Positions 23,301 through 26,300 of a stretch of 64,000 bases of DNA are shown piece after piece. The notes below the pieces were generated by a model that saw only the letters and a list, made by a program, of their open reading frames with translations, was not told where the DNA came from and did not search any database. Source of the DNA: the human T2T-CHM13v2.0 reference genome, Homo sapiens; assembly GCF_009914755.1 (NCBI RefSeq), contig NC_060926.1; one strand, 5' to 3'. The position numbers and the translations under genes were made by a program. How positions within the stretch are numbered: position 1 is the stretch's first letter; each line of letters opens with the position of its first letter.

Positions 23301-26300
23301 TCCAGCCTGGGCAAAAGAGTAAGACTCCGTCTCAAAAAAAAAAAAAAAAAAAAAAAAAAAAAGAGGCAGGAGTGAGGACGAGCCTGGGCCCAGGCAGAGG
23401 AGCTGCTCTTGGAATGGCCCAGGGCCCCTGCCTCTGGTAGGCAAGAAACAATCAGCCTGGAGCAGCGGCTCTCGACTCTCCCCACTCAGCGGACCTCTGG
23501 CAGTGTCTGCAGACATTTTTGGTTCTATGGCTGGGTGAAGGAGTGTTTCTAGCCACCAGTGGGTGGGGTCATGGATGCTGCTAAACATCCCATGCTGCAC
23601 AGGACAACCCCTCAACAAAGAAGGATCTGGCCCTATTACCAGTAGTGCTGAGGGTTAGAAGCCCTAGTCTCACCTGAAGGGCTTGGGCTCTGCAGGTGGC
23701 AGGCCTGTATCTGAACCATGCCCTGGCATTACTCACATACCACCTGGGCAGTCTCTCCAAGCCTCCCTTACCCCATCTGTCAATACTCTCTCCAGGAGGG
23801 GTGACACCACCAGGCATGGGCAGGACAGCACTGCTGGTTTTGTTGTAGTTAGACAGCCAAAGTGACAACTGCTTGTAAGAGACTCTTTCAAGGGCCAGGC
23901 CTGGTGCTAGTTGCTTCACATTCATTGTCTATTTAATTCTCATAACCACTACGGTTCCCGTTTTGTAGAAGAGGAAACTGAGGATCAAAGGGGCCAATGG
24001 TTACTCTGGCAATGCCAGAAGCAGACCCCAGGGTTGATTCTGAACTTGGCCTCTCCTTGGTGAGGTGAGACCTGAGCCAAGTATCCAGGGCCTTGAACAT
24101 CTTAGTCCATACTGGGTACCTCCACGGTCCCTGAGACATAGCCTTGAAGCTCTCCCTTCAAACAAGGCATCTAGAATGGATGAGCCTGAATTCAAATGAA
24201 CTGCCCTCGTGATGCCTCTGGCTCTCTGAAGCATCAGCTGCAGTGATTGTACCAACTGTGACAACAGCACAAGTGAGCTGATGGCTGTGCTGGGGTCTGC
24301 CTCAGTCCCTCCCTGGTGGAGGCTTTTTCTCCAGAGGCAGCAGGATGACCTGGTGGGCTCCTAGACACACCTCCTTCCATTGGAAACTTTGATGAACCCA
24401 CTTTTGGGGTCTTTTCTTTATTTCCAGCCCATTCTGTCCTTTCCTCCCATGTGGCAAGATTACACTTATATGTGTGATTAAAGCCCACACTCAGTACATC
24501 TTCGCTGGGTCATGTTGTTGGATCCTGGGGTGATACCAGGGCTAGAATCCCCACAGAGCTGCCTATTAACCTGTGAATTTGAGCGAGTTACTCAACTCTG
24601 TACCACAGTTCCCTTGCATGTAAAATGAGGATGACATCAGTCTCTAAGAGGGTCACTGCAAGGAACAAATGGGTTAATACCTATCCCAGAGTGGTGCTTT
24701 CCATTAGCAAATGCTCAATTGCTGTCTGCTGTGTTCACGATGGTGACCAGGGGGAGCCAACAAGAAGAGAGAGGACCTTACAGACCTTCCTTTGGAATCC
24801 TGCCCAGGAGCTATACTGGAGGCAGGGATGGAGCCATTCCCAAGACTGTGTTGACAAAGCACAGGAAGGAAGGGTGGCATCGGGCAGGGAGGGTGGCATT
24901 GGGCAGGGAGGATGGCATCGGGCAGGGAGGGTGGCATCAGGCAGGGAGGATGGCATCGGGCAGGGAGGGTGGCATCGGGCAGGGAGGGGGGTATCAGGCA
25001 GGGAGGGTGGCATCAGGCAGGGAGGGTGGCATCGGGCAGGGAGGGTGGCATTGGGCAGGGAGGGTGGTGTGTGGGCTGGGAGGGTGGCATCGGGCAGGGA
25101 AGGTGGCATCAGGCGGGGAAGGTGGCATCAGGCAGGGAGGGTGGCATCGGGCAGGGAGGGTGGTGTGCAGGCAGCCTGTCCCACCGGCAGACTCAGGCTC
25201 ACACACCTCGAGGCACCAGTGCCAGTCCAGATTAGGGGGAGACTTTATCTTCACCTGCCCACCCAGGGTACCCACCTTGCATGCTCCACAGCCAGTAGCC
25301 CACACACTGGGAGACAGGTAAAAGGACGAGCTAAAAATATATCTTATGTTTTTCCCCTTTCTTTAAATTGGGATGGAAACTAGATTGGTGCACCTGTATT
25401 CTTTCTACCTTTCACAAATATTTTTCTAGAGTCCAATAAAGTTAAGAGGAAACTTGTTAACCTTCTCGGGCTTCACATGTTTACAAACGGATGATGTATT
25501 TCTCTCGCATTTCACCTAAGGCATCAGTTTTCTGACATCTTCAATACACACTCAGATTAAATATTTTGCTCCCAAGGTTGACAAGTCAGCCAAGAGAGGA
25601 AGGGAAGGCAGGTGAGGAATGGATAGGACTGGGGGTGGAGCAGCATCGGGAGCCAGTGTCAGAACCAGAGGACAAAACAGTCTCCTTTCAACAACGAGGA
25701 CGCCCCAGAGCCTGGGGCTCACCTGCCTGCAGAGACTGTGGGCAGCTAAAGCTGAACTCAGCCCTTGGCTCCCATTCTCTGGTGCTTTTACTCCACAGTT
25801 GAGGACCCTAGAGTCTCCAGGGCAAAAGGACCAAGCCTTATTTAAAAACCTATGTAGATCTCATCCCTGGGTTCATACATGGTCCTGTATCCCCAGCCAG
25901 TTACTTTACCTGCGGCTTTGCTTCTTCGCCTTTGAGCGTGTCCTCTGAGGGTAGACTATATCCCTAGTACACAGCCCTAGGCCCAAGGGGGACCATTTAG
26001 TTGGGAGTGACCCAGCTTGGATATGCAGCCAGGGTGTGAAGAAATGGGGACAGGCAAGACAGGAAGCCAGCATGGTATGTGTCCCACATTCTGGTGTGGA
26101 ATTGGGAGTAGGAGCCTCCATTCATGCTCTTGTCCCAATGCCCATAACATAAGGGAGGGGACTACTCTCTGGCATGGTCCTCCACCCGAGACCTTGACAT
26201 GGGGGTACAACCTTCGTTCATCTTTTCATAAAGATTGTCCTTTGAAACTGGCCAAGAAGAAGAATCTCTTGCCACTCTCCCCTGTCAAGGTGGAGCTGAT

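What the first reader, a model, noticed from the sequence alone, without database searches (positions are those of the whole stretch)
25874..25938. A copy of the GALNT14 exon-13 splice donor inserted precisely into one arm of an intronic inverted repeat
Seen: 25877-25935 matches 30343-30401 at 55/59 bp in the same orientation. This is the last 26 nt of the 145-bp exon plus its intact donor and 33 nt of intron (minus strand ...GAAGAAGCAAAGCCGCAG|gtaaagtaactggctg; KGEEAKPQ vs genuine KGEDAKSQ). Aligning the two inverted arms shows the 65 bp sit exactly between ccctgggtt and tgtcctc, which are contiguous in arm 1. The simplest reading is a templated insertion from ~4.5 kb away. Inference: if the arms pair in the pre-mRNA, the duplicate 5' splice site lies in an unpaired bulge of a long stem. 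It could then act as a decoy, recursive or cryptic donor. Adjacent AGs would give a 35-nt frameshifting exon (25910-25944) or a 33-nt in-frame phase-0 exon (25910-25942, [11 protein letters not shown]) between the lectin alpha and beta repeats; both acceptors look weak.
Basis: partly seen in the sequence, partly recalled or inferred. Interest (0 to 1): 0.8.

Follow-up and report, generated by a model that had tools for sequence, protein, structure and literature searches.

The report
Exon-edge copy pasted into GALNT14 intron
A 65-base patch copied from the end of GALNT14 exon 13 and the start of its intron sits inside one arm of an old inverted duplication deeper in the same intron; it looks like a fossil DNA-repair or replication scar that happens to carry an intact but apparently unused splice donor.

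Summary
Window 25877-25935 matches 30343-30401 at 55 of 59 bases in the same orientation. These are the only two copies in the whole T2T genome. The 65 bases 25874-25938 interrupt arm 2 (~25800-26574) exactly where arm 1 (~20419-21100) is contiguous at 21022|21023. The arms are a genome-unique pair, 82% identical over 492 aligned columns.

New here: a MIR-like dispersed repeat runs across arm 1's outer edge but stops at arm 2's edge. Arm 1 is therefore the parent, and the patch lies in the derived copy.

There is no target-site duplication and no poly(A) tail. One junction has 2 bases of microhomology and the other has 3 filler bases. This is the signature of a templated insertion from double-strand-break patch repair or a replication template switch.

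The copied donor 9-mer is identical to the real one. However, 9 of 604 unannotated GT sites in this intron match the consensus equally well. No RefSeq transcript uses it, and the nearby acceptors are weak. In silico the arms pair and bulge the patch out.

Function could not be tested: no RNA-seq and no other mammal genomes were available. Verdict: a real, tidy, probably neutral scar and a new member of a known kind.

The parts
25874..25938 (-). 65-nt insertion in arm 2. It consists of a templated core at 25877-25935 plus 3 unmatched bases at each end.
   Evidence: The arm-arm alignment has a 65-column gap in arm 1 exactly here. Repeat and BLAST breakpoints are at 25873|25874 and 25938|25939.
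25904..25912 (-). Copied 5' splice-site 9-mer (-3..+6) CAGGTAAAG. The last 'exon' base is 25910 (T2T chr2:30,963,910).
   Evidence: It is identical to the 9-mer of the real exon-13 donor. A 21-nt stretch around it (25892-25912) is identical to the source.
30343..30401 (-). Source of the copy: the last 26 nt of exon 13 (30376-30401), its donor, and the first 33 nt of intron 13 (30343-30375).
   Evidence: Exon bounds come from the hub's RefSeq table. Phase 0 and the peptide were checked.
20419..21100 (.). Arm 1 of the inverted duplication, the parental copy. It is contiguous at 21022|21023, where arm 2 carries the patch.
   Evidence: There are no other copies in the genome.
25800..26574 (.). Arm 2 of the inverted duplication, the derived copy. 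It carries the patch about 50-75 nt from its inner end.
   Evidence: The inner end is fuzzy, with identity falling to 57-66% beyond 25829.
20335..20488 (+). MIR-like dispersed repeat (the name is recalled; no tool named it). It spans the outer edge of arm 1, and only its part from about 20417 onward is present in arm 2.
   Evidence: 39 dispersed genome matches cover window 20328-20514. 5 fetched copies align to 20335-20488. The profile matches arm 2 only from profile position 150. The outer flanks share no similarity: score 9.0 against a shuffle mean of 9.2.
25910..25944 (-). Hypothetical cryptic exons ending at the copied donor: 33 nt (25910-25942, in frame) or 35 nt (25910-25944, frameshift).
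   Evidence: The acceptors have 10 and 11 of 20 pyrimidines. There is no annotation and no expression data.

Best explanation
This is a fossil templated insertion. A break or a stalled, dissociated nascent strand arose inside arm 2 of an old intronic inverted duplication. It was repaired by copying about 59-64 nt from the exon 13/intron 13 boundary, 4.47 kb away on the same strand, and the strand then returned to the original template without losing any arm base. The process was either double-strand-break patch repair or microhomology-primed template switching.

Because the template happened to span a splice donor, the patch carries an intact copy of that donor in the sense orientation of the pre-mRNA. 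The most likely present-day status is neutral. It is one more unused donor-like site in an 11.8-kb intron.

Shown: the copy, its uniqueness, its exact placement, the polarity of the arms, and the junction anatomy. Inferred: the repair mechanism and neutrality.
For: - The repeat matches at 55 of 59 bases in direct orientation, and only two copies exist in the genome.
- Arm 1 is contiguous where arm 2 has 65 extra bases, and no arm base is missing.
- The arms are a genome-unique pair and not a transposon family.
- Arm 2 is the derived copy, because the dispersed repeat is whole at arm 1 and truncated at arm 2's edge.
- Reading searches shows no flank duplication, no A-tract and no TTTT/A site. 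They show a 2-nt 'TG' overlap at the 25938/25939 junction and 3 unmatched bases (25874-25876) at the other.
- These are the features listed for class 2 templated sequence insertions (PMC5110952, passages read) and for MMBIR-type templated insertions that return to the original template (PMC8421209, passages read).
- For neutrality: the 9-mer is one of 9 unannotated GT sites among 604 in intron 13 with at least 7 of 9 consensus matches, and one of 39 among 2520 in the window's gene-sense strand.
- None of the 13 RefSeq transcripts has an exon here (hub table).
- The candidate acceptors are weak.
- The mismatch pattern shows no more conservation than chance allows (4 of 59).
- Only 1 of 11 exons in the window has such a copy, so this is a one-off event rather than a system.
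Against: Nothing here measures use of the donor. No RNA-seq junctions, CLIP data, conservation tracks or splice-site models were available, so neutrality is a prior and not a result.

The copied site is more faithful than a random donor-like 9-mer. It brings 26 nt of real exon and 33 nt of real intron context, and the 21 nt around the donor are unchanged.

The template lies 4.47 kb away. That is farther than the roughly 100 bp described for yeast MMBIR insertions (PMC8421209) and much nearer than the 'distant' donors of TSIs (PMC5110952), so it fits neither description neatly.

Microhomology is minimal and may have been blurred by later substitutions.
Confidence: 0.75

Rival explanations
1. 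One complex event. The inverted copy (arm 2) and the exon-edge patch were made together in a single replication-based rearrangement with serial template switches. The switches would run arm 1, then the exon-13 boundary, then back to arm 1, in the style of FoSTeS/MMBIR. In this reading the patch was not inserted later into an existing arm.
For: The patch lies in the derived arm, only about 50-75 nt from its inner end.

Divergence does not separate the two ages. If the patch were as old as the arms, about 7.3 mismatches would be expected in 59 nt and 4 are seen, P(<=4) = 0.15. The naive Fisher test of 4/59 against 82/482 gives p = 0.057.

Multi-template insertions that return to the first template are described for MMBIR (PMC8421209, passages read).
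Against: The point estimate is younger: 6.8% divergence for the patch against 17% for the arms, and 16% and 26% in the 100 and 73 aligned columns either side of the patch. A return to the exact next base of arm 1 is equally expected for a later event in arm 2.
Confidence: 0.25
2. Functional decoy or cryptic donor. The copied 5' splice site is displayed in a bulge of a roughly 650-bp intronic RNA duplex. It binds U1 and modulates removal of intron 13, either as a decoy that slows excision or as the donor of a 33/35-nt cryptic exon (an 11-residue in-frame insert or an NMD target).
For: The donor 9-mer is identical to the real donor and carries authentic exon and intron context.

The arms pair in silico. 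558 of 758 arm 2 nucleotides pair with arm 1 in a two-strand fold, at -933 kcal/mol against -479 for the arms folded apart. 561 of 775 pair in the MFE fold of the 6301-nt stretch. In both folds the patch is left out of the duplex.

A 33-nt exon would be in frame and would keep the final Q codon before VW.

Decoy exons in large introns are an established mechanism (PMC6097662, abstract read; PMC7373989, abstract in listing).
Against: - No annotated transcript uses the site (hub table).
- The acceptors have 10-11 of 20 pyrimidines.
- Nine equally consensus-like GT sites lie in the same intron.
- In the folds the -3..+2 bases of the donor are paired in a small local hairpin and are not free. That hairpin is no more stable than shuffles: z = -0.73, with 37 of 200 shuffles folding as well.
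- MFE folds of kilobase RNAs are unreliable, and arm 1 is transcribed about 4.8 kb after the patch.
- Three searches found nothing in print on a GALNT14 cryptic exon or on retention of this intron.
Confidence: 0.07
3. RNA-templated patch. The 65 nt were copied from unspliced GALNT14 pre-mRNA, either by reverse transcription or by direct RNA-templated repair, rather than from the DNA 4.47 kb away.
For: Class 2 templated sequence insertions are reported to derive from RNA and to show the same junction anatomy (PMC5110952, passages read). The site and the template lie in the same transcription unit and the same orientation, so nascent pre-mRNA would have been present at the break.
Against: The fragment spans an unspliced exon-intron boundary. 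The result is indistinguishable from DNA templating, and nothing in the sequence calls for RNA.
Confidence: 0.15
4. Deletion from arm 1. The 65 bp were already in the segment before it was duplicated, and arm 1 later lost exactly those bases.
For: Divergence cannot exclude that the patch is as old as the arms.
Against: It needs a deletion whose two ends coincide, within about 3 nt each, with the ends of the exon-derived stretch. The arm that lacks the patch is the parental one.
Confidence: 0.03

Closest known systems
Class 2 templated sequence insertions (TSI/TSIP; double-strand-break patches), as reviewed in PMC5110952
   Same: A short stretch copied from elsewhere in the genome, with the donor left intact. 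There is no target-site duplication, no poly(A) tail and no L1 endonuclease site. The junctions show minimal microhomology and a few unmatched bases.
   Different: The donor is 4.47 kb away in cis within the same intron, not a distant locus or another chromosome. The event is old and presumably fixed rather than a known polymorphism. An RNA origin is not shown.
MMBIR/FoSTeS-type templated insertions (PMC8421209)
   Same: The strand copies a nearby template and returns to the original one with no loss of sequence. The patch sits in a region that already carries a replication-type rearrangement, the inverted duplication.
   Different: The template is in direct orientation and kilobases away rather than within about 100 bp. 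Only 2 nt of microhomology is visible at one junction and 0-1 nt at the other.
Decoy exons that promote intron retention (PMC6097662, PMC7373989)
   Same: It is a cryptic exon-like unit with a strong donor deep inside a large intron (11.8 kb).
   Different: There are no junction reads, no conservation data, no U2AF binding data and no evidence that intron 13 is retained. The acceptor is weak. The donor here is a recent copy of the intron's own 5' splice site.
Intronic inverted repeats forming long dsRNA (inverted Alu pairs; long-range pre-mRNA structures, PMC8052449)
   Same: Two roughly 650-700-nt complementary arms lie 4.7 kb apart in one intron and are predicted to pair.
   Different: This is a unique-sequence duplication and not Alu. 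No GALNT14 entry appears in the 3 supplementary files of PMC8052449 that are held as text. Pairing in vivo is untested.

Membership tests
Class 2 templated sequence insertion (PMC5110952) | The inserted stretch is templated from another genomic place and the donor is retained. | tested here: met
   55 of 59 identity to 30343-30401, and both copies are present.
Class 2 templated sequence insertion (PMC5110952) | No target-site duplication of 5 bp or more, no poly(A) tract, and no TTTT/A insertion site. | tested here: met
   The flanks ...CCCTGGGTT and TGTCCTC... are not duplicated, and there is no A-run at either end.
Class 2 templated sequence insertion (PMC5110952) | End-joining marks at the junctions: microhomology, non-templated bases or microdeletion. 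| tested here: inconclusive
   There is a 2-nt TG overlap at one junction, 3 unmatched bases at each end, and no deletion. After tens of millions of years the unmatched bases may simply be substitutions.
Class 2 templated sequence insertion (PMC5110952) | The donor is distant, RNA-derived, and polymorphic among people. | not testable with these tools
   The donor is 4466 bp away in cis, which departs from 'distant'. RNA origin and population frequency could not be examined.
MMBIR templated insertion (PMC8421209) | A short insertion copied from a nearby template and flanked by microhomology (2-12 bp at 80% of junctions in that paper). | tested here: inconclusive
   The template is 4.47 kb away. 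Microhomology is 2 nt at one junction and 0-1 nt at the other.
Decoy exon (PMC6097662) | A cryptic cassette with both splice sites inside a large (>1 kb) intron. | tested here: inconclusive
   The intron is 11.8 kb. The donor equals the real one. The acceptors have 10-11 of 20 pyrimidines, at the low end of the real range of 9-18.
Decoy exon (PMC6097662) | Junction reads to the flanking exons (seen after NMD inhibition), high conservation, U2AF binding and host-intron retention. | not testable with these tools
   No RNA-seq, CLIP or multi-species data were on hand.
Recursive splice site | A 3' splice site with a pyrimidine tract abutting the GT, so that splicing regenerates a 5' splice site (definition recalled). 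| tested here: not met
   The 20 nt before the CAG|GT are purine-rich exon sequence. By my own count they hold 5 of 20 pyrimidines, read from the sequence printed.
Tandem exon duplication / mutually exclusive exon | A copy of the whole exon with its acceptor and donor (definition recalled). | tested here: not met
   Only 26 of the 145 exon nt are copied, and the acceptor is not copied.
Transposable-element pair as the source of the inverted arms | Many dispersed copies in the genome. | tested here: not met
   A 591-nt arm query found only itself and arm 2 in 3.1 Gb. Only the outer 70-150 nt belong to a dispersed repeat. The tool scores only the best candidates, so very diverged copies could be missed.

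The most novel reading that the evidence does not exclude
The copied donor acts as a structured decoy. When the two arms pair in the pre-mRNA, the patch is the one large unpaired island on a roughly 650-bp duplex, and it presents a perfect replica of the intron's own 5' splice site with its exonic context. U1 bound there could compete with the real donor for the exon-14 acceptor, slowing intron 13 removal. Alternatively it could define a 33/35-nt cryptic exon, giving an 11-residue insert before the first QxW motif of the lectin domain or an NMD isoform. Arm pairing, or ADAR or helicase activity on it, would act as the switch.
Probability: 0.05. Interest if true: 0.6.

Novelty: new member of a known kind. 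Interest (0 to 1): 0.25.

Why it matters
As a scar, it is a clean textbook example of a kilobase-range templated insertion preserved in the germline. An internal control (the sister arm) fixes the insertion site to the base, and a truncated dispersed repeat fixes which arm is the copy. Such cases help calibrate how far repair polymerases reach for templates in vivo.

It also shows one way that faithful duplicates of splice sites get seeded into introns, which is raw material for cryptic or decoy exons. If the donor were used, it would add an unannotated GALNT14 isoform, or a brake on intron 13 removal, in a gene studied as a cancer-prognosis marker. That part is untested.

Tried and rejected
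- **Dating by orthologues:** no primate or mammal genome is reachable with these tools. Only rough divergence arguments were possible, and they do not separate 'same age as the arms' from 'younger'.
- **Paralogues:** I tried to show that the exon edge is ancient from paralogues. The 48-residue exon-13 peptide found only itself in the genome at a meaningful E-value, with the next hits at E = 9, so this gave nothing.
- **Further exon-13-derived or other templated pieces near the arms:** none. BLAST of both arm regions and the exon region against the window gave only the known pairs.
- **Other exons with intronic copies:** 0 of the other 10 exons.
- **Known RNA families in 18000-31500:** only Alu/SRP-like matches and weak miRNA-like matches inside the Alus and an AC repeat. 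Nothing lies in the arms or the patch.
- **Local structure of the patch:** not better than shuffles.
- **Literature searches:**
  - 'GALNT14' with 'cryptic exon': 0 papers.
  - 'GALNT14', 'alternative splicing', 'isoform' and 'intron': 14 papers. The one read in passages concerns rs9679162 in intron 5 and exon-6 skipping, not intron 13.
  - 'GALNT14' with 'intron retention': 2 papers. One was checked and names the gene only as differentially expressed. The other, a bioRxiv preprint, was seen only in the listing.
- **Catalogue of conserved complementary regions (PMC8052449):** the held supplements do not name GALNT14. The full catalogue may lie in files not held.
- **MaxEntScan/SpliceAI scores:** not computed, because the models are not on the machine. 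For a 9-mer model the two donors are equal by identity.
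Full report
**What is there**

On the + strand, 25877-25935 and 30343-30401 are the same sequence at 55 of 59 positions, offset 4466, same orientation. The match is 58 of 64 if carried to 25940. Chance over all placements in the window is about 1e-18. 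A 91-base query across the copy found exactly two places in the 3.1-Gb assembly that holds the window: itself and the exon-13 donor. It is therefore not part of any repeat family.

GALNT14 is read from the minus strand. On that strand the copy holds the last 26 nt of exon 13, the donor, and the first 33 nt of intron 13. Concatenating the annotated coding exons confirms that exon 13 ends in phase 0 with ...KGEDAKSQ, followed by VWAFTY.... The copy reads ...KGEEAKPQ. The four mismatches are at 25891 (intron part) and at 25913, 25915 and 25922 (exon part). The 21 bases 25892-25912 around the donor are unchanged.

**The inverted repeat and the exact site**

Arm 1 (~20419-21100) and arm 2 (~25800-26574) are reverse complements.
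- BLAST gives 82.1% identity over 492 columns for 20537-21022 against 26425-25939.
- It gives 80% over 51 for 21023-21073 against 25873-25823.
- The breakpoints found by two methods agree: arm 1 is contiguous at 21022|21023, while arm 2 has 25874-25938 in between.
- No arm base is missing at the site.
- A 591-base arm-1 query found only itself and arm 2 genome-wide. The arms are therefore a local inverted duplication and not two transposon copies. That tool scores only its best candidates.

**Which arm is the copy (new)**

The outer 70-150 nt of the arms belong to a dispersed repeat. I recognise it as MIR-like; no tool named it. Around arm 1, 39 dispersed genome matches cover window 20328-20514, and five fetched copies align to 20335-20488. 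The repeat thus runs about 85 nt beyond the arm boundary at ~20417-20419.

A profile built from arm 1 and those five copies matches arm 2 only from profile position 150 onward (window 26573 downward). The DNA outside the two outer boundaries shows no similarity.
- Outer flanks: local score 9.0 against a shuffle mean of 9.2 ± 1.6, with 182 of 300 shuffles at least as good.
- Control just inside the arms: score 34 against 8.4 ± 1.5, with 0 of 300 shuffles as good.

The simplest reading is that arm 1 is the parental segment and arm 2 is a truncated inverted copy. The exon-edge patch lies in the derived copy, about 50-75 nt from its inner end.

**Junction anatomy and mechanism**

There is no duplication of the flanks, no A-tract and no TTTT/A site. 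At the 25938/25939 junction the source and the arm share 'TG'. At each end three bases (25874-25876 and 25936-25938) match the source at only one position. They may be filler or later substitutions.

These are the features given for class 2 templated sequence insertions, meaning patches at double-strand breaks (PMC5110952, passages read). They also fit microhomology-primed template switches that return to the original template (PMC8421209, passages read). The distance to the template (4.47 kb, in cis, direct orientation) lies between the two descriptions.

I cannot tell DNA templating from templating by unspliced pre-mRNA.

**Age**

The arms differ at 82 of 482 aligned positions (17%, K2P 0.20). 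By recalled neutral rates this means several tens of millions of years, a rough inference. The patch differs from its source at 4 of 59 positions (6.8%, 95% interval 1.9-16.5%).

The naive comparison gives p = 0.057. If one allows that the exon part and the donor are frozen in the source, 7.3 mismatches would be expected were the patch as old as the arms, and P(<=4) = 0.15. A later insertion is therefore favoured by the point estimate only, and a single complex rearrangement that made arm 2 and the patch together remains open. Orthologous introns would settle it, and none can be reached here.

**The splice-site question**

The -3..+6 9-mer of the copy is identical to that of the real exon-13 donor, so any 9-mer model scores them the same. 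That alone is not special.
- Among 604 unannotated GT sites on the gene's strand in intron 13, 9 match the recalled consensus at 7 or more of 9 positions.
- In the window there are 39 such sites among 2520, four of them at 8 of 9. There is a second exact copy of this 9-mer at 39741.

Their acceptors have 10 and 11 pyrimidines in the 20 nt upstream. The 11 real acceptors of the window have 9-18, median 15. A recursive site is excluded on sequence, because the bases before CAG|GT are purine-rich exon sequence.

The hub's table lists no exon of any of the 13 RefSeq transcripts near 25.9 kb. Three literature searches found nothing on a cryptic exon in GALNT14 or on retention of this intron. The GALNT14 splicing story in print concerns intron 5 and exon 6 (PMC12333627, passages read).

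**RNA structure**

Folded together as RNA in transcript sense, the two arms gain 455 kcal/mol over folding apart. 558 of 758 arm 2 nucleotides pair with arm 1. Within the patch, 1 nucleotide pairs with arm 1, 32 pair within the patch and 32 are unpaired.

The MFE fold of the whole 6301-nt stretch keeps the same picture, with 561 of 775 arm 2 nucleotides paired to arm 1. In both folds the donor's -3..+2 bases sit in a small hairpin with 25894-25899. The patch alone folds no better than shuffles (z = -0.73).

The 'bulge on a long stem' is therefore a fair in-silico description. However, kilobase MFE folds are weak evidence. The partner arm is transcribed about 4.8 kb later. An inverted Alu pair (23055-23335 and 29335-29616) is interleaved with the arms and would compete topologically.

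**Verdict**

I add that the patch sits in the derived arm of a genome-unique inverted duplication. The functional reading is unsupported and was untestable here, and I give it about 5-7%. This is a new instance of a known kind of mutation and is most likely neutral.

Noticed in passing
window 20538-20784 / 26175-26424, with a perfect block at 20662-20716 / 26246-26300: Arm identity is very uneven. It is 224 of 249 (90%) in this tract against 176 of 233 (75.5%) in the next one (Fisher p = 3e-5). There is also a 55-nt run with no mismatch, where P = 0.002 under uniform 83% identity. This suggests either gene conversion between the arms or constraint on this piece.
   Followed up: partly
window 23055-23335 (+) and 29335-29616 (-): An inverted Alu pair (SRP-like Rfam matches; arms 82-87% complementary) lies in the same intron and is interleaved with the unique inverted duplication. 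The two long pairings would cross each other in the pre-mRNA.
   Followed up: no
window 24867-25163: A G-rich 19-bp minisatellite of 15.6 copies at 88% match lies on the + strand, the template strand of GALNT14, about 710 bp from the patch. It is a conceivable fork-stalling or break-prone site near the insertion. This is speculation.
   Followed up: no
window ~26514-26531 and ~26426-26470 (arm 2): Arm 2 has an 18-nt insertion inside its MIR-like part and a roughly 40-nt stretch that does not align with arm 1. No template for either was found in the window.
   Followed up: partly
window 28505-28669: A tandem duplication of an 81-bp unit, 2 copies at 92-93% identity, lies in intron 13.
   Followed up: no
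window 39741 and 39752 (minus strand): A second exact copy of the 9-mer CAGGTAAAG lies 11 nt from an 8-of-9 consensus donor-like site, in the intron between the exons at 38325-38451 and 48458-48561. Neither is annotated.
   Followed up: no
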